A stretch of 64,000 nt of DNA from a virus (taxonomy: Duplodnaviria > Caudoviricetes), in the IMG/VR virus record IMGVR_UViG_3300043812_000016, positions 79,483 through 143,482 of that record, one strand, 5' to 3'. The position numbers and the translations under genes were made by a program. A model generated the notes under the pieces. That model made no database searches. It saw nothing but the letters and a program-made list of their open reading frames with translations, and was not told the origin of the DNA. Position 1 is the first letter of the stretch. Each line of letters begins with the position of its first letter. Below, piece after piece: positions 30,475 through 56,465 of this stretch.

Positions 30475-30993
30475 ATGGTTGTTAAGTTTACGCAAGCATA
30501 TATGACAACAGATTATCCAGATGAAAATGGTAACTACTACTATCCTGTATTTGTACCAGAAAATGCTCATGTACAGTTACCAATCGTTACTTCGATGCCA
30601 GATGCTAGTTTAGGAAATCGTGGTATTCGTTATGATTGGAATACTAATAGCTGGACTGTATCAAGTGATGACCCACTAATTAAAAAGATTAATACTCTTG
30701 AAGCACAATTGAATGGTTTAGTTTCAGCTTCTAAAGGTGATAACAGCACCTCAGGAAATCCTAGTTCAACTCAACCAACTACCCCTGCTAGTTCTGCTGA
30801 TAGCTCGTCTACTGCACCTGCAAGTCCTAATGGTAGTACATTATCTAATATGATGAATATGTTTAATGGAATGAACCCGAGTCCAGCTAACGCAACTAGT
30901 CAAGCTCAACCAGCTAGTTCTGACTCTAGCTCAGCAGACGTTAATTCAGTAAACCCAGACACTCCAGACCCAACAAAGGACAGTGATAAGTAA
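30475..30993 (+). CDS. Hypothetical protein with S/T/P-rich tail
   Basis: AAGGAG SD; upstream TATATTA. Confidence 0.65.
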   Translation: MVVKFTQAYMTTDYPDENGNYYYPVFVPENAHVQLPIVTSMPDASLGNRGIRYDWNTNSWTVSSDDPLIKKINTLEAQLNGLVSASKGDNSTSGNPSSTQPTTPASSADSSSTAPASPNGSTLSNMMNMFNGMNPSPANATSQAQPASSDSSSADVNSVNPDTPDPTKDSDK

Positions 30994-31235
30994 TGAGAGC
31001 TGAATTTTACGACAATTATTGGTATAACCAGATGTGTGCGGGTTATGAAAAAGGAGTATTTAAAGAAGAATGGTACATCGATAAGGCTGTAGATTTTGGC
31101 TGGATTGATGAAAAAGAGGCACAAGTCTTACATAAGAAATATTTTACAAAACCAGACGATATTATCATTCCTAATCCTCCTGCTTCTATTCAACTCTACG
31201 TATCTACTACGAGTGTAGAAGTAAGGGGTGAATAG
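30993..31235 (+). CDS. XkdX-like small protein with C-terminal FN3 A/B-strand-like tag
   Basis: AV..GWI...EA motif; C-terminal PNPPASIQLYVSTTSVEVRGE. Confidence 0.55.
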   Translation: MRAEFYDNYWYNQMCAGYEKGVFKEEWYIDKAVDFGWIDEKEAQVLHKKYFTKPDDIIIPNPPASIQLYVSTTSVEVRGE

Positions 31236-51550: not shown

Positions 51551-52708
51551 ATGAGTAAAAGGCTAACTACGGCAGAATTTAAACAAAAAATATATAATTT
51601 AGTAGGTAACGATTATAGTCTTATTGGTGAATATATTAATCGAACTACTAAAGTGACATTAAAGCACAATAAGTGTGGATACGTATATCAAGTACTCCCG
51701 TCTAATTTTTATAATGGTACTCGTTGCCCAAAGTGTGCGCCAAAAAGGATTTCAAAGACTAAAACAAAAAGTGCTGACGAATATGCTAAAGAATTCTACC
51801 AAGAAGTAGGCAATGAGTATACCATTATTACTCCTTATAAAAATGCTCGCACTAAAATTAAGATTAAACATAATAAATGTGGATATGTATATTGGGTTAA
51901 TCCTCAATCATTCTTAGCGGGTAGTAGATGTTCAAAGTGTGCAAGAGCTGATAGAACCCATACAACCACTTGGTTTAAGGAAAAAGTAAAGGATCTTACT
52001 GGGGACGAATATAGTGTATTAGGAATCTATGTAAATTCTGGTACAAAAATTAAGATTAAACATAATAAATGTGGATATGTATATTGGGTGCGCCCTAGGG
52101 ACTTTATTAGAGGTAATAGATGTCCTATACAACATAAAGCATATAAAAAAACTACAGCAGACTTTCAAAAAGATTTAGACTTAAAATATGGGTCCGGGAT
52201 ATATCTAGTATTAGGGACTTATATTAATAGATTTACTAAGTTAGAAATTAAGCACTTAAAATGTGGTCATATATGGGAAACAACTCCTAATAATCTATTA
52301 AGTGGTTATGGATGTGATAGATGTGGAACGGCTAGTCGTACTAATTCAGAACCTATTGTAAGACACTTGTTGGATCAATTAAAGGTTAATTATAAATACC
52401 ATCAACATTTTTGGTGGCTTCGATATAAAGGCCCCCAACATTTAGACTTCTATTTCCCAGACAAAAAAATTGCCATAGAGATAGACGGTTTACAACACTC
52501 TAAAAACATCAACTATTTTAATAATAACCTTATAAAAAATAAATTAAGAGATAAAAATAAAGATATTCTTTGTAAGAAACATGGTGTACAATTAATACGT
52601 ATACCATATAAGGGAAGCCACTACACTGAAGATCTAAAGAGAGAAGTACTTAAGGTACTGAAACAATATAATTTGCTAAAGGACGGTGCTAATGACAAAT
52701 TTAAGTAA
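51551..52708 (+). CDS. Free-standing zinc-ribbon-repeat Vsr/DUF559-like endonuclease
   Basis: Four KHNKCG..RC repeats; HLDFYFP..IAIEIDGLQH...LIRIPY. Confidence 0.8.
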   Translation: MSKRLTTAEFKQKIYNLVGNDYSLIGEYINRTTKVTLKHNKCGYVYQVLPSNFYNGTRCPKCAPKRISKTKTKSADEYAKEFYQEVGNEYTIITPYKNARTKIKIKHNKCGYVYWVNPQSFLAGSRCSKCARADRTHTTTWFKEKVKDLTGDEYSVLGIYVNSGTKIKIKHNKCGYVYWVRPRDFIRGNRCPIQHKAYKKTTADFQKDLDLKYGSGIYLVLGTYINRFTKLEIKHLKCGHIWETTPNNLLSGYGCDRCGTASRTNSEPIVRHLLDQLKVNYKYHQHFWWLRYKGPQHLDFYFPDKKIAIEIDGLQHSKNINYFNNNLIKNKLRDKNKDILCKKHGVQLIRIPYKGSHYTEDLKREVLKVLKQYNLLKDGANDKFK

Positions 52709-53086: not shown

Positions 53087-53845
53087 ATGGCAAGAAAAAA
53101 GATTAATAAAAAAGATCGGATTACTGGATATAATACTGATAACAAAAATGTATTTAATAGCTTAAACGGTGTTTATATTGGTAACAGCAACCATAACATT
53201 ACTTTTGTAAGGGACTACGAACAATTAATTAAACAATATTCTAACTTAATTCATAACATGGGACGTAGGTTCGGTAACATTAATATGACCTATGCAGAAA
53301 GACAAGATTTATATGCTTACATTACTGAGGTATTTATTGACCTTGTAAGAGAATTTGATATGAGCAACGGAATGGACTTTCCGGGCTATATAGCTAAAAT
53401 GCTTCCTACAAGAATTAGAGGAAGCTACTTAGATTCTATTCAAGACTATAAGTCCCATATTACGCCTCTAAAAGATGGTAATAAGAGTGTCGAAGAGATA
53501 GCAGATTTGCAATATGGAAAAGCCCCTGTTACCTTTAGTTATTCACGTAAGAGTAAGTACAATCGAGTTCAGCGTAAGGATGGTAAAGTACGAGGAATTG
53601 TTTCAGAGGCTATTGATACACCTAATACCAATGAAATGGATAACAGCTTAGCTGAAATTCATTCTGCTTTTAAACTCCAAGGATATAATGACCCTGAATT
53701 ACATTCATTAGTAGATTATATCGCTAAAGACGGATTAACTGCTAAAGAAGCTAAGGACAGAGTGAAAGAACAATACCACTTAAATAAGAGTGAATTAGAA
53801 AAAGAATATGGTACTTTAGTTAAATTAATGAAAGCTTATCTTTAA
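53087..53845 (+). CDS. Phage RNA polymerase sigma factor
   Basis: Region-2-like ERQDL..YI.E.F..LV.EFD...DFPGYI; synteny. Confidence 0.75.
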   Translation: MARKKINKKDRITGYNTDNKNVFNSLNGVYIGNSNHNITFVRDYEQLIKQYSNLIHNMGRRFGNINMTYAERQDLYAYITEVFIDLVREFDMSNGMDFPGYIAKMLPTRIRGSYLDSIQDYKSHITPLKDGNKSVEEIADLQYGKAPVTFSYSRKSKYNRVQRKDGKVRGIVSEAIDTPNTNEMDNSLAEIHSAFKLQGYNDPELHSLVDYIAKDGLTAKEAKDRVKEQYHLNKSELEKEYGTLVKLMKAYL

Positions 53846-53914: not shown

Positions 53915-54494
53915 ATGGAATTACATTCCGCAGAAAAAGCAGAAAAGGCTCGTAATGACGCTTTAAGAGATTTAATTGTAAAGGCAAGTAAGGTAAAGGT
54001 CAGTGACTTAAATAAGAAGTTTATCGTTATTAAAGATGTTACTGACTTTGGGAACTTATTTGACCTACGTGGTGCAGATGTATTAATCTTTGGAATTGTT
54101 GGTACAGACATCTACCGTCTCAAAAAGCTAGAACAAGCTAGTGACCCAACTAAGGGTGAATTAGTTGTTACAACTGATGCAGATAAGAAAGAAATTATCT
54201 GGAAACAAGATCATAAAGAACAACAACCATTTGAGGCTTACCACGTATTACGCAAATCTAAGTACTATGGTACAGACGCTGGTCAACCTATGTTAGAAGC
54301 CTTTACAAGCTCATATTCATGGTACTTACAATATTGCTGGCTATGACTCACGCTTAGTAACCTTTGCTGAATTAGTAGCTGACTTAAAAGAAAATGGCGA
54401 ATCTGCCCCAGTCCAACCAGCTAAACTATCAGCCCCACAAAGCCCAACCGTAGATCCAAAGGCTAAATCAGTAACAGTAAGTACAGATAAATAA
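53915..54494 (+). CDS. Virion-associated protein with C-terminal FN3 A/B-strand-like tag; apparent +1 error near 54300
   Basis: Removing one C gives a continuation ending LSAPQSPTVDPKAKSVTVSTDK. Confidence 0.6.
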
Positions 54495-54520
54495 AAGTAA
54501 TAAAATGAAAGGAAAATTCG

Positions 54521-55114
54521 ATGCTACCTTTTCAGTATGAACCAAAATTTATCATGTCTGGGGATCGAACCAAACAGCGTATGGTCGCTTTTAAGGGCTT
54601 AGAGTCTCCTGACAAAATTGGTATTGGTAAAGCTGGTGAAAACAAAGTTGTAATCACTGGTCTTCAGCCTGACACGTTTTATCCAGCAGGATCTTATAGT
54701 GTTGCTTACTACAGTGAACAAGGTAATGGTAGCGGGCGGATGCAACTACCAGCTTTTAGAACTAAACCCGTCATTATGGAAAGTTTTGATATTGACGTAG
54801 GTAAAGAGATTAGTGGTGTAGAAGGCGAAGTTAAGTCTGTTCTTCCGGGTAACTACAAGCCAACTAATACTTCTAATGTTAATGTTAAAGCAGAAAGTAA
54901 AGACGAAGATATTGCCCTCGCTAAGTATAATAGTCAACGGGGTACTTATGATATTAACTTTGTAAAAGAAGGAGAAACAGATATTGTATTTACTGCTTTA
55001 GACGGTGGCGGAGCTACTTTTGACCTATCTGTAGAAGTAAGACCTAAACCAGAAGCCCCAGAAGAAGTAACTGTAGTTAGCAAGAATAATTCAGCTACAA
55101 TTAAAGTAAATTAG
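54521..55114 (+). CDS. Ig-like decoration protein: headless FN3 + Big_2 + tag
   Basis: ITGLQPDT.YPAG.Y.VA; P.N.SN..V...S.DE.IA..G.T.I...A.DG. Confidence 0.8.
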   Translation: MLPFQYEPKFIMSGDRTKQRMVAFKGLESPDKIGIGKAGENKVVITGLQPDTFYPAGSYSVAYYSEQGNGSGRMQLPAFRTKPVIMESFDIDVGKEISGVEGEVKSVLPGNYKPTNTSNVNVKAESKDEDIALAKYNSQRGTYDINFVKEGETDIVFTALDGGGATFDLSVEVRPKPEAPEEVTVVSKNNSATIKVN

Positions 55115-55128
55115 GAGGGTACGAGTAA

Positions 55129-55737
55129 ATGGAAGATAGAACAAACGAACACTTAGTAATTTATGACAAAGATAATAGAGTAATTGCTACTGGAGAAAAG
55201 GGAGCTAAACAGGTAGAGATTACTGATTTAATTCCTAATACTGATTATCCAGACGGTTCATACACAGTAGCTTGGGTTAAGGAAAATGGGGATACTAGTG
55301 ATAAAATTAATGTCCCAGACTTTAATACTTTAGCTATTCTAATGGAAAGTTTCACCTTAGCCCCAGATACTATTACAGGTACCGAAGGTGACGACTTAAA
55401 TGTTACAGTTACTAGCATTAATCCAAGTGATGTTACTAATAATACTGTTAGTGCTGTTAGTGCAGATGAAAGTATTGCTACTATTAAGTGGGATGACGCT
55501 AAGCACGCATTTTCTGCTCATCTAGTTAAAGCGGGTAGAACTACCTTTAATTGGACATCAGCAGACGGTGGGGCTAAGTTAACCCAAAATGTAGAAGTTA
55601 CAGCTAAACCCGCCCCTGCTCCAGAACCAGCCTCTAGTCAACCAGCAGAAAGTAATGAGCCTACATCAGCTACTCCAGCAAGCCCAGCTTCTAGCCCTGC
55701 CAGTTCAGCTACTCCAGCAAGCCCAGCTTCAGTATAA
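55129..55737 (+). CDS. Ig-like decoration protein: headless FN3 + Big_2 + PAS-rich tail
   Basis: ITDL.PNT.YP.G.Y.VAW; Big_2 pattern; repeated TCAGCTACTCCAGCAAGCCCAGCTTC. Confidence 0.8.
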   Translation: MEDRTNEHLVIYDKDNRVIATGEKGAKQVEITDLIPNTDYPDGSYTVAWVKENGDTSDKINVPDFNTLAILMESFTLAPDTITGTEGDDLNVTVTSINPSDVTNNTVSAVSADESIATIKWDDAKHAFSAHLVKAGRTTFNWTSADGGAKLTQNVEVTAKPAPAPEPASSQPAESNEPTSATPASPASSPASSATPASPASV

Positions 55738-55769
55738 GGTTAAAGAGTGAGGTAACTGTTAATAAAAAT

Positions 55770-56172
55770 GCAGAACTATATAGAATGATATAGAAACATA
55801 TGCTATATTTAAATCGTAGAAAGAATAAATGTAGGCGATTTATTAGGGCAATGTTAAAACCAAAAGGAATGACTAAAAGATTAGGTATTACAGTTAGAAT
55901 CTGCAAATTTCACCTTGACTTCTAAAAACATTAAAGTTAAACTTCGCTTGTAGAAGAAAAGAGGTGAAAATAATGATCCGAGTTCAAAAGGTAAGGCTTT
56001 ACCCAAATCAAACCATGAAAAAGGTTCTTGATGATCTATGTGATTATCGTAGGTATTGTTGGAATCAAGGCTTAGCTTTATGGAATGACATGTATGACAG
56101 TTCATTGGTTTTAGATGATAAAAAGTTAAGACCTAGCGAACGTAAGGTTCGTAATGAGTTAGTAGCTAATAA
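55770..56172 (+). mobile_element. IS607-family remnant: tnpA stub + 5' part of tnpB
   Basis: 55851..55925 MLKPKGMTKRLGITVR resembles the IS607 TnpA N-terminal HTH; 55973 onward MIRVQKVRLYPN...RRYCWNQGLALWNDMY is a TnpB N-terminus. Boundaries approximate. Confidence 0.75.
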
Positions 56173-56239
56173 AATTGAAAAACCAACAAATATTAAAGTA
56201 GTTGCAAGTAGTAAGAGAACAACAATTAGCGCAGAATAG
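55973..56239 (+). CDS. Chimeric 88-aa ORF: TnpB N-terminus + FN3 tag
   Basis: Promoter TTGACT-17-TAAACT (55915-55943); SD GAGGTG; ends KPTNIKVVASSKRTTISAE. Confidence 0.6.
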   Translation: MIRVQKVRLYPNQTMKKVLDDLCDYRRYCWNQGLALWNDMYDSSLVLDDKKLRPSERKVRNELVANKIEKPTNIKVVASSKRTTISAE

Positions 56240-56252
56240 AGGGATTTAAAAC

Positions 56253-56465
56253 ATGGATAACGGACAAGGATTAATCTTAGAAGTGTTTAACCAAGCCGGT
56301 AGCTTAGTAGCTCAAGGTGATATTGGTAAGAACACTGTAAATATTAAAGGCTTAAAAGCTGGTCAAGCAGTTAAAGAAGGAGAATATACAGTAGCTTATA
56401 CTGATGGTAAAGTTATTGGTGATACTGCTAAAGTTCCTGCTTTCAACGTTCAAGCAAGTAAATAA
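56253..56465 (+). CDS. Stand-alone headless FN3 protein
   Basis: IKGLKAG....GEYTVAY...KVPAF. Confidence 0.75.
   Translation: MDNGQGLILEVFNQAGSLVAQGDIGKNTVNIKGLKAGQAVKEGEYTVAYTDGKVIGDTAKVPAFNVQASK

What the first reader, a model, noticed from the sequence alone, without database searches (positions are those of the whole stretch)
53915..56465. Split-FN3 'tag and catcher' decoration system
Seen: four proteins end in a ~20-aa P-x-x-(V/I/P)-x-(V/L)...S/T-x-x-(V/I) peptide: 30993 PNPPASIQLYVSTTSVEVRGE; 53915 SAPQSPTVDPKAKSVTVSTDK; 54521 PEAPEEVTVVSKNNSATIKVN; 55973 EKPTNIKVVASSKRTTISAE. This resembles FN3 strands A-B. Three proteins (54521, 55129, 56253) begin with an FN3 lacking those strands (I.GL.P.T.Y...Y.VA). 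Each catcher gene directly follows a tag gene, with gaps of 26, 14 and 13 nt, all out of frame, so simple readthrough cannot join them. 54521 has both catcher and tag and could chain or polymerise. Inference: non-covalent strand complementation that docks Ig domains onto chosen virion proteins.
Basis: partly seen in the sequence, partly recalled or inferred. Interest (0 to 1): 0.72.

Follow-up and report, generated by a model that had tools for sequence, protein, structure and literature searches.

The report
Split FN3 domain links virion proteins
In this large Lactobacillus-type phage one small fibronectin-like domain is repeatedly cut in two between neighbouring genes, so that the two-strand tail of one protein most likely completes the five-strand start of the next. 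This would clip a chain of Ig-like proteins onto the virion without any covalent link.

Summary
Three genes end in a roughly 20-residue peptide: A at 54429-54491, B at 55043-55111 and D at 56174-56236. Each is followed, 26, 14 and 13 nt later and out of frame, by a gene with its own ribosome-binding site (B, C, E). Each of these starts with the C-C'-E-F-G part of an FN3-like domain.

There are three corrections.
- Gene A carries a 1-nt insertion in this assembly. It is intact in five relatives.
- Gene D is an IS (TnpB) remnant fused to the tag of a lost 'catcher+tag' gene.
- The fourth tag (30993-31235) is not supported by a tag profile.

Unsplit homologues show tag and catcher as one continuous domain. 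AlphaFold2 and Foldseek place that domain in the FN3 fold. The cut always lies in the B-C loop.

The same tag|stop|SD|ATG-catcher layout recurs in staphylococcal Herelleviridae and in many siphophages. In the siphophages the tag is reached only by a -1 (A_AAA_TAR) or +1 (CCC_TAR) frameshift at the end of the capsid or tail-tube gene.

Published MALDI masses of purified phage K and Triavirus virions match the separate polypeptides, so a covalent fusion is excluded there. Binding itself is inferred, not shown.

This scan found the same system earlier on other DNA (e1-5323376, e1-3424203, e1-5845342).

The parts
53915..54494 (+). Gene A. It is the anchor protein (phrog_21586) and ends in the tag. 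In this assembly a 1-nt insertion near 54300 breaks the frame: frame 1 runs 53915-54346 and frame 2 runs from about 54300 to 54494.
   Evidence: Searches show both pieces hitting phrog_21586 at consecutive profile positions. Searches show intact genes in L008-L012.
54429..54491 (+). Tag of A (SAPQSPTVDPKAKSVTVSTDK). It is equivalent to FN3 strands A-B.
   Evidence: Searches show it aligning to the contiguous A-B strands of the unsplit homologue P0027. It is weak by the tag HMM (3.8 bits).
54521..55114 (+). Gene B. Its parts are a catcher (about 54554-54766), a Big_2 domain (about 54770-55054) and a tag (55043-55111).
   Evidence: phrog_341, Big_2. One search gives an AF2 model with pLDDT 88.9. 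One search gives Big_2 matches with Z up to 13.4 for residues 84-178. One search gives the tag 34.7 bits.
55129..55737 (+). Gene C. Its parts are a catcher (55129-55338), a Big_2-like domain and a Pro/Ala/Ser-rich tail. It has no tag, so it would end a chain.
   Evidence: phrog_341 at 1e-27 over residues 7-162; alignment.
55738..56173 (+). IS remnant, including a TnpB N-terminal HTH. It replaced the catcher part of an ancestral 83-aa catcher+tag gene (D').
   Evidence: PF12323, 3.3e-8; phrog_506 transposase. Searches show L008-L012 carrying D' at this position.
56174..56236 (+). Tag of D/D' (IEKPTNIKVVASSKRTTISAE). Here it is fused in frame to the TnpB remnant ORF 55964-56239.
   Evidence: 18.5 bits, E = 3e-4 among 2920 ORF ends.
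56253..56465 (+). Gene E. It is 70 aa and consists of a catcher only, so it would cap a chain.
   Evidence: Its homologue, phage K gp114, is a virion protein of 7,818 Da.
31170..31232 (+). It is not supported.
   Evidence: not among the top HMM scores; the next gene is phrog_1394, not a catcher; only near-identical relatives, so conservation cannot be judged.

Best explanation
Genes A, B, C, (D') and E encode a set of virion decoration proteins that are joined non-covalently by a split FN3-like domain.

Each joint has two halves.
- The upstream protein ends in a beta-hairpin of about 20 residues, equivalent to strands A and B.
- The downstream protein is translated from its own start codon and begins with strands C, C', E, F and G.
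- Docking of the hairpin restores the A-B-E sheet and closes the sandwich.

The proteins fall into three roles.
- A has a tag only and is the anchor. By analogy with phage K gp116 it probably sits on the capsid.
- B (catcher, Big_2, tag) and the ancestral D' (catcher, tag) are extenders.
- C and E have a catcher but no tag and are terminators.

The result would be short chains of Ig-like domains projecting from the virion.

Shown here: the split, its exact and conserved position, the existence of unsplit homologues with an FN3 fold, and conservation of the layout across phage families. For staphylococcal homologues it is also shown that the pieces are separate polypeptides in purified virions.

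Inferred: the physical tag-catcher contact, the pairing order, the virion site in this particular phage, and the function of the Ig chain (weak adhesion to surfaces or glycans, as generally proposed for phage Ig-like domains).
For: 1. Anatomy in the window.

2. Catcher profile search against 1.8 billion representative proteins.
- 216 hits.
- Of 171 domain copies, 117 start at the N-terminus and 54 are internal. The internal copies are preceded directly by tag-like A-B strands.
- P0027 is a homologue of A fused to the whole domain.

3. Structure.
- In the AF2 model of P0027 the domain has pLDDT 95-98 and the tag-equivalent residues form strands A and B.
- Foldseek places the domain among FN3 domains.

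4. Tags.
- 25 independent C-terminal tags align without gaps, and the stop codon falls at a fixed place.
- About 30 of 116 N-terminal-catcher proteins end in a tag.

5. The same layout in other phages: phiSA_BS2, EV3, phiSLT and phage K.

6. Survey of 80 IMG/VR loci.
- 63 of 85 catcher starts have a tag-scoring ORF end within 45 nt upstream.
- Only 37 of 2081 other ORF ends score as tags, and the top-scoring ones printed are the C-terminal tags of catcher+tag proteins.
- Among 38 non-redundant tags, 25 lie in the -1 frame behind A_AAA_TAR, 4 in the +1 frame (two behind CCC_TAR), 7 are in frame, and 2 end short catcher+tag ORFs with no long upstream ORF.

7. MALDI of purified virions (PMC5923470).
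- Masses for phage K gp116, gp115 and gp114 equal those I computed for the separate ORFs.
- The Triavirus Ig protein is seen at 15,871 Da as a separate species.
- An unassigned 25,208 Da peak matches my predicted +1 frameshift product of tail-tube protein plus tag, 25,204.7 Da.

8. PDB 9ROX and 9ROZ.
- They hold the phage K gp116 sequence, residues 2-175 only (tag region absent), at 5 chains per entry together with 16 capsid-protein chains.
- gp115 and gp114 are not in the PDB.

9. Solved precedent: in phage Tuc2009 the C-terminal hairpin of BppU completes a beta-sheet of BppA domain 2 (PMC4742702).
Against: - No direct binding data or complex model for any member of this family.
- In the AF2 monomer model of B its own tag forms two strands at pLDDT about 87. 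I had no coordinates, so I cannot say where the tag packs. Docking in cis or elsewhere is not excluded.
- A's tag is weak by the tag HMM.
- A (phrog_21586) has no significant similarity to phage K gp116 (phrog_1240). BLASTP gives E = 0.21 and hhalign E = 0.08. The capsid location is therefore only an analogy.
- In relatives there are four catchers and three tags, so at least one pairing is unexplained.
- In this assembly A is frameshifted and D' is destroyed. If both lesions are real, part of the system is defective in this phage.
Confidence: 0.72

Rival explanations
1. Recoding fusion. The ribosome joins tag and catcher by frameshifting, bypassing or readthrough, so the real product is one covalent chain with an intact FN3 domain.
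For: Programmed frameshifts that add whole Ig-like domains to phage structural proteins are well known. Examples are phages A2, SPP1, T3 and the Listeria phages (PMC5009743). I confirmed a whole Big_2 domain in the -1 frame after the A2 head and tail genes.
Against: - Stops lie in all three frames between tag and catcher.
- The gaps vary from 11 to 33 nt with different frame offsets and no conserved take-off/landing pair. Every junction I examined shows an SD-like motif, and every one has its own start codon (ATG, or TTG in one case).
- Intact-mass MALDI of phage K and Triavirus virions gives the separate polypeptides. These begin at their own start codon with normal Met processing and end at their own stop.
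Confidence: 0.04
2. Relic without function. An ancestral single-chain Ig fibre was broken by mutation. The tags are leftover linkers, and the catcher proteins either attach by other means or are not attached at all.
For: - Unsplit forms exist.
- Some homologues of A carry a low-complexity tail instead of a tag, for example LfeInf gp110.
- C ends without a tag.
Against: - The cut is at the same loop, and the tag ends at the same residue, in phages as far apart as Staphylococcus Kayvirus, Triavirus, Lactobacillus siphophages and this phage.
- Tags keep their beta-hairpin pattern while diverging in sequence (window versus L012).
- In most of the siphophage loci surveyed the tag needs a dedicated slippery site to be made at all (29 of 38 non-redundant tags lie in an alternative frame), which argues for selection.
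- The catcher-only protein gp114 of phage K is retained in CsCl-purified virions.
Confidence: 0.12
3. Self-closure. In proteins that carry both halves (B, D') the C-terminal tag folds back onto the protein's own catcher. These proteins would then be closed monomers, not chain links, and only the A-to-B type joints would work in trans.
For: The AF2 monomer model of B gives the tag two strands at pLDDT about 87 and a compact pTM of 0.69.
Against: - In that model the catcher's E-strand segment (residues 41-48) is not in any ladder, so the tag's B strand is not paired with it.
- In D' only about 7 residues separate strand G from the tag, which is too short to reach the far pole of its own domain (geometric inference).
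- Tag-only and catcher-only proteins exist and are virion-bound, which requires pairing in trans.
- AF2 monomer runs tend to satisfy open edges within the chain.
Confidence: 0.12

Closest known systems
Lactococcus phage Tuc2009 baseplate tripod: C-terminal beta-hairpin of BppU with BppA domain 2 (PMC4742702)
   Same: A roughly 25-residue C-terminal hairpin of one phage structural protein completes a beta-sheet of a small beta-sandwich in a second, separately encoded protein. The composite resembles a titin-type Ig/FN3 domain. The principle is the same: a non-covalent split Ig-like domain acting as a joint between proteins.
   Different: [quoted passage not shown]
- Here the incomplete domain is always N-terminal and the two genes are adjacent.
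- Here the module is portable, appearing on capsid, tail-tube and decoration proteins.
- Here it can be chained, and in siphophages the tag is dosed by frameshifting.
- Sequence relatedness to BppU/BppA was not tested.
Frameshift-appended Ig-like domains of phage structural proteins (Fraser et al. 2006, cited in PMC5009743): Lactobacillus phage A2 gp5/gp10, SPP1 gp17.1*, T3 10B, Listeria phages PSA/A118/A500
   Same: Ig-like domains (FN3, Big_2) displayed on capsids and tails. The slippery sites are of the same types, -1 on a run of A and +1 on CCC before a stop.
   Different: In those phages the whole domain is covalently appended. Here only strands A-B are attached, either in frame in this window or by frameshift in siphophage relatives. 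The rest of the domain and its cargo are a separate gene product.
Donor-strand complementation in chaperone-usher pili (established knowledge)
   Same: Incomplete Ig-like folds are completed by a strand from the neighbouring subunit. Subunits that carry both halves can form ordered chains with initiator and terminator subunits.
   Different: - In pili one G strand is missing and is donated by an N-terminal extension. A periplasmic chaperone and an usher catalyse the exchange.
- Here two strands (A-B) are missing and are donated by a C-terminal hairpin.
- There is no homology, and no chaperone is known here.
T5 pb10 and T4 Hoc: capsid decoration proteins with a capsid-binding domain plus Ig-like domain(s) (PMC5292684 for pb10; Hoc from general knowledge)
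   Same: An anchor domain on the capsid carries exposed Ig-like domains. This is the likely overall role of A plus B/C/E.
   Different: pb10 and Hoc are single polypeptides. Here the anchor and the Ig domains are separate proteins joined by a split domain.
SpyTag/SpyCatcher (engineered split CnaB2 domain; established knowledge)
   Same: A short peptide and the remainder of an Ig-like domain reconstitute the fold.
   Different: SpyTag forms a covalent isopeptide bond and is man-made. Here the homologous phage K proteins keep their individual masses in MALDI, so no covalent bond forms.

Membership tests
FN3 (fibronectin type III) domain | Sequence match to Pfam fn3 (PF00041) | tested here: not met
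   Pfam scan of A, B, C, D and E at E <= 1 lists no fn3. Only Big_2 appears, in B and C.
FN3 (fibronectin type III) domain | Seven-strand beta-sandwich with sheets A-B-E and C'-C-F-G | tested here: met
   The unsplit homologue P0027 has strands at 154-158, 161-165, 176-181, 186-189, 196-199 and 213-219 with pLDDT 95-98. The top Foldseek PDB matches are FN3 domains, probability 1.00 and TM up to 0.67. This was tested on a homologue, not on the window's own split pieces.
phrog_341 / phrog_14018 'major tail protein' (Ig-like virion proteins of Firmicutes phages) | Profile match over the N-terminal catcher, with or without the Big_2 domain | tested here: met
   C 1.1e-27, B 3.2e-16, E 8.4e-6 against phrog_341. 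The family name is an annotation habit. Phage K has a separate sheath and tube, and these proteins are not the tail tube.
Frameshift-appended Ig-like extension (A2/SPP1/PSA type) | The Ig domain is covalently joined to the structural protein by a programmed frameshift | tested here: not met
   In the window the tags are in frame with their own proteins, and the catchers have their own SD and ATG with stops in all frames between. Virion masses of the phage K homologues are those of separate chains.
Covalent tag/catcher (isopeptide, SpyCatcher-like) | A covalent bond between tag and catcher after docking | tested here: not met
   For homologues only. Intact masses of 23,069, 17,718 and 7,818 Da in phage K virions equal those of the unlinked chains. 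Not testable for the window phage itself.
Split Ig-like joint of the Tuc2009 BppU-BppA kind | The C-terminal hairpin of protein 1 physically completes the sandwich of protein 2 | not testable with these tools
Kayvirus capsid decoration protein (phage K gp116, phrog_1240; PDB 9ROX/9ROZ) | Sequence or profile similarity of the anchor domain | tested here: inconclusive
   A belongs to phrog_21586, not phrog_1240. BLASTP gives E = 0.21 and shallow hhalign E = 0.08 over a 30-residue motif. The synteny is the same, after the sigma-factor gene and before the catcher genes.

The most novel reading that the evidence does not exclude
The split FN3 module is a general, portable assembly code of Firmicutes phages.
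- Tag-only proteins start chains. These are a decoration protein, a capsid protein or a tail-tube protein, and in the last two the tag is often dosed by a shifty-stop frameshift.
- Proteins with both a catcher and a tag extend chains.
- Catcher-only proteins cap chains.
- Ordered Ig-domain fibres would thus be built on the virion by strand donation from the preceding protein, with gene order matching chain order. This would be a virus counterpart of pilus donor-strand assembly that needs no chaperone.

In Kayvirus it would explain what hangs on the unmodelled C-terminus of the capsid decoration protein.
Probability: 0.45. Interest if true: 0.85.

Novelty: new variant of a known kind. Interest (0 to 1): 0.72.

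Why it matters
- **Decoration.** It would explain how many phages of Gram-positive bacteria, including the therapeutic Kayvirus group, hang Ig-like proteins on their heads and tails. These are small proteins that are routinely mis-annotated as 'major tail protein'.
- **Unexplained data.**
  - It offers an identity for the shared but unassigned 25,208 Da peak in Triavirus virion spectra.
  - It offers a purpose for the short hidden frames behind A_AAA_TAR and CCC_TAR sites at the ends of capsid and tail genes.
  - It suggests what binds the unmodelled C-terminus of the phage K capsid decoration protein.
- **Practical use.** A natural, small, non-covalent tag/catcher pair that already works on virions could be used to load cargo onto phage particles.
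- **Concept.** It extends strand-donation assembly from bacterial pili and one lactococcal baseplate joint to a widespread viral module.

Tried and rejected
2. **Bypassing at the B-C junction.** GTAAAT occurs before the stop and again at the ATG. Landing there runs into a stop two codons later, so this is coincidence (sequence).
3. **Programmed frameshift in gene A.** Rejected. Relatives have an intact gene and the window simply has one extra C.
4. **Phage 812 neck protein.** I first guessed that phage K gp116 was the 'gp164 stopper decoration protein' of the phage 812 neck, and that the unresolved neck whiskers were the Ig chain. This was wrong. That paper's PDB codes differ, and the PDB chain identical to gp116 sits in entries with 16 capsid-protein chains.
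5. **Searches that failed or found nothing.**
   - The search for related loci with the mixed catcher alignment failed because no stretch was conserved enough.
   - Megablast of the region against the phage collection found nothing.
   - PDB sequence searches with the catcher profile, C, and phage K gp115 and gp114 found no solved catcher.
   - The ESM Atlas gave nothing for A.
   - Literature searches for a described split Ig/FN3 decoration system in phages found none. This shows absence from the held library only.
6. **MAFFT misalignment.** MAFFT misaligned the homologues of A against P0027, so they were left out of the alignment used for folding.
Full report
**What is in the window**

The window is the last 64 kb of a 143,482-bp IMG/VR virus record. 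Gene order resembles Herelleviridae: a sigma-factor gene (53087-53845, phrog_1025), then the genes discussed here, then an Mre11-like phosphoesterase. Gene A finds relatives only in Lactobacillus Herelleviridae such as LfeInf and Semele. The host is therefore probably a lactobacillus.

The genes are as follows.
- **A** runs 53915-54494.
- **B** runs 54521-55114.
- **C** runs 55129-55737.
- **D** runs 55964-56239.
- **E** runs 56253-56465.

B, C and E begin with a roughly 70-residue beta-rich module (phrog_341 / phrog_14018). This module is found only three times in the whole genome.

The gaps between the tag stop and the next ATG are 26, 14 and 13 nt. Each holds an SD-like motif. Each reading frame is closed by a stop just before the ATG, so neither readthrough nor a single ±1 shift can join the genes.

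**Corrections to the observation**

1. Under table 11 the ORF that starts at 53915 ends at 54346. The tag-bearing C-terminus lies in the +1 frame. Both pieces hit consecutive positions of phrog_21586.
   - Five close relatives carry one intact gene of 192-194 aa.
   - The DNA alignment shows a single extra C in the window near 54300.
   - Sister contigs from the same sample have scattered frameshifts in other genes. An assembly error is therefore the likeliest cause, and a programmed shift is not.
2. D is a chimera. Its first ~60 residues are a TnpB/OrfB N-terminal HTH (PF12323, 3e-8). Relatives L008-L012 have an 83-aa gene, D', at this place, made of a catcher followed directly by the tag. 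An IS insertion followed by deletion removed the catcher here and in L007.
3. C has no tag. It ends in a Pro/Ala/Ser-rich tail.
4. The fourth tag (ORF 30993-31235) does not score with a tag profile. No catcher follows it. Only near-identical relatives exist.

The ancestral set is therefore: A (tag), B (catcher, Big_2, tag), C (catcher, Big_2), D' (catcher, tag) and E (catcher).

**Tag plus catcher is one domain**

A profile of eight catchers was searched against 1.84 billion representative proteins and gave 216 hits. Among 171 domain copies, 117 begin at residue 1-15 of the protein and 54 are internal.

The internal copies are preceded, without interruption, by a P-x-x-P-x-x-V-x-V...T-A-x-(V/I) segment. 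They then run into the conserved 'DR(S/T)xxxxLxVY' start of the catcher. Examples include the following.
- P0027 is a homologue of A fused to the whole domain.
- P0077, P0114 and P0049 are further single-domain fusions.
- P0003 and P0009 are multi-repeat proteins.

AlphaFold2 on P0027 gives the C-terminal domain pLDDT 95-98. The tag-equivalent residues form strands at 154-158 and 161-165. Foldseek matches it to FN3 domains with probability 1.00 and TM up to 0.67. Pfam fn3 does not match the window proteins, so 'FN3' holds for the fold only.

In FN3 topology, strands A and B make up two thirds of sheet A-B-E. A catcher alone therefore lacks one face of the sandwich. In the AF2 model of window protein B (pLDDT 88.9) the E-strand segment is in no ladder. 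Residues 84-178 form a Big_2 domain with Z = 13.4.

Twenty-five independent C-terminal tags align without a single internal gap, and all end 0-3 residues after the B strand. The cut is therefore precise.

**The layout is conserved far beyond this phage**

The same sequence of tag, stop, SD and start codon (ATG, or TTG in one case) followed by a catcher occurs in several distant phages.
- Staphylococcus phiSA_BS2 and phage K have an anchor, then catcher-Big_2-tag, then catcher.
- In Lactobacillus siphophage EV3 the capsid protein itself ends in the tag.
- In Staphylococcus Triavirus phiSLT and 47 the tag lies in the +1 frame over the end of the tail-tube gene.

I also surveyed 80 IMG/VR loci fetched with a catcher motif.
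- 86 of 88 catchers open their ORF.
- 63 of 85 catcher starts have a tag-scoring ORF end within 45 nt upstream. Only 37 of 2081 other ORF ends score as tags. The 25 top-scoring of these, which are the ones printed, are all C-terminal tags of catcher+tag proteins.

Among the 38 non-redundant tags:
- 25 lie in the -1 frame of a long upstream capsid-like gene, which in 23 of them ends ...A AAA TAR;
- 4 lie in the +1 frame, two of them behind CCC TAR;
- 7 are in frame;
- 2 end short catcher+tag ORFs.

These are classic shifty-stop sites of the kinds already proven in Listeria phages and in phage A2. In A2 itself the frameshift adds a whole Big_2 domain.

About 30 of 116 N-terminal-catcher proteins also end in a tag. 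P0062 has two tags in tandem.

**Experimental anchors from the literature**

Štveráková et al. 2018 (PMC5923470) measured intact masses in purified staphylococcal virions.

For Kayvirus they report 23,069, 17,718 and 7,818 Da for three consecutive gene products. I recomputed these masses from phage K.
- gp116 (tag only) gives 23,068.1 Da without Met.
- gp115 (catcher, Big_2, tag) gives 17,717.2 Da without Met.
- gp114 (catcher only) gives 7,817.4 Da with Met.

The pieces are therefore abundant virion proteins and separate chains. There is no recoding fusion and no isopeptide bond.

For Triavirus the corresponding values are as follows.
- The tail-tube protein is 23,295 Da and the Ig protein 15,871 Da. 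Both match my calculation.
- The six phages share an unassigned peak at m/z 25,208.
- A +1 shift on TTA_CCC_A that appends the tag predicts 25,204.7 Da.

The PDB holds a chain identical to gp116 residues 2-175, named 'Putative Ig-like protein'. It occurs in entries 9ROX and 9ROZ at 5 chains per entry, beside 16 capsid-protein chains per entry. I read this as a capsid asymmetric unit with a decoration protein whose last 35 residues, including the tag, are not in the deposited chain. I found no paper for these entries. gp115 and gp114 are not in the PDB.

Finally, in phage Tuc2009 a 25-residue C-terminal hairpin of BppU 'completes one of the beta-sheets' of BppA domain 2. The composite resembles a titin domain (PMC4742702). 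This is a solved precedent for the mechanism.

**Mechanism and its limits**

The best reading is non-covalent strand complementation that links anchor, extenders and caps into short Ig-domain chains on the virion.

Steps that are shown:
- the split and its conservation;
- the fold of the unsplit form;
- separate translation of the pieces;
- presence of the homologous pieces in virions.

Steps that are inferred:
- the physical contact between tag and catcher;
- which tag pairs with which catcher, since relatives have four catchers but only three tags;
- the site on this phage, because A (phrog_21586) shows no significant similarity to phage K gp116;
- the biological role of the Ig chain.

In the monomer model of B, its own tag forms two strands at pLDDT about 87. 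I could not locate these without coordinates. Self-closure of the proteins that carry both halves therefore remains a minor rival.

**Novelty**

I found no published description of this split module. The absence applies to the held library only.

Two related things are known: Ig-like decoration added by frameshifting, and the single Tuc2009 joint. This scan has already reported the same system on other genomes (e1-5323376, e1-3424203, e1-5845342 and others).

This window adds several points.
- A multi-gene chain in a Herelleviridae-type phage whose tags are in frame.
- A dedicated anchor protein.
- A natural knockout of one link by an IS element.
- Links to the published Kayvirus and Triavirus mass spectra and to the 9ROX/9ROZ capsid entries.

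Noticed in passing
window 54296-54302: There is one extra C in gene A (GAAGCCTTTAC here, GAAG-CTTTAC in L012). It splits the gene into two frames. Relatives have it intact, and sister contigs show other random frameshifts (B in L007, C and D' in L011), which suggests assembly indels.
   Followed up: yes
window 55738-56239: An IS remnant (TnpB N-terminal HTH, PF12323) replaces the catcher of an ancestral catcher+tag gene. It leaves a 91-aa ORF with its own SD that fuses about 66 residues of TnpB to the tag. If made, this soluble 'free tag' could compete for catcher E.
   Followed up: partly
L093:1080-1160 (Staphylococcus phage 47) and L002 (phiSLT): The tail-tube gene ends TTA CCC AGC TAA, and the tag lies in the +1 frame. 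The predicted frameshift product without Met is 25,204.7 Da. This matches an unassigned peak at m/z 25,208 shared by six triaviruses in PMC5923470.
   Followed up: yes
L013-L092 (IMG/VR siphophage loci), just upstream of position ~1500 in each: In 23 of 25 non-redundant loci with a -1-frame tag, the capsid-like gene ends ...(TCA/GGA/GAA) AAA TAR and a 24-42-codon -1 frame encodes the tag (L067 and L070 end GAA GCC TAG instead). Two more loci end ACA CCC TAR with the tag in the +1 frame. These look like unannotated programmed shifty-stop frameshifts.
   Followed up: partly
P0062 (221 aa), P0026 (518 aa), P0007 (187 aa): Three variant architectures.
- P0062 carries two tags in tandem.
- P0026 has a catcher behind a large N-terminal region (which I read, untested, as an SGNH-type esterase domain), with no A-B strands before it. 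The old start Met is still in place.
- P0007 has a catcher, a whole domain and a tag in one chain.
   Followed up: no
L106:2601-3272 (LfeInf gp110) and L107:2577-3232 (Semele gp074-gp075): Homologues of anchor A can carry other C-termini. LfeInf ends in a long Ser/Ala/Pro/Gln-rich repeat with no tag and no catcher gene. In Semele a tag-like peptide lies in the +1 frame after the stop (AGC AAA TGA), about 40 codons before a catcher gene.
   Followed up: partly
PDB 9ROW/9ROX/9ROZ versus L096:16029-16661 (phage K gp116): The deposited chain 'Putative Ig-like protein' stops at residue 175 of 210. It is present in two of three entries that hold 16 capsid-protein chains each. This is probably a Kayvirus capsid with and without its decoration protein. 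I found no paper for these entries.
   Followed up: partly
phrog_215 (profile of 491 positions): Phage K gp116 matches profile positions 1-136, and the Big_2 parts of window B and C match positions 220-324 of the same profile. Some phages therefore probably encode anchor and Ig domains as one unsplit chain.
   Followed up: no
window 51551-52708: A 385-aa protein with four repeats of a Cys-containing 'KHNKCGYVY..P..F..G.RCP.C' unit, which look like zinc ribbons, and a C-terminal domain that I read as nuclease-like. It looks like a free-standing homing endonuclease next to the sigma-factor gene. No domain search was run on it.
   Followed up: no
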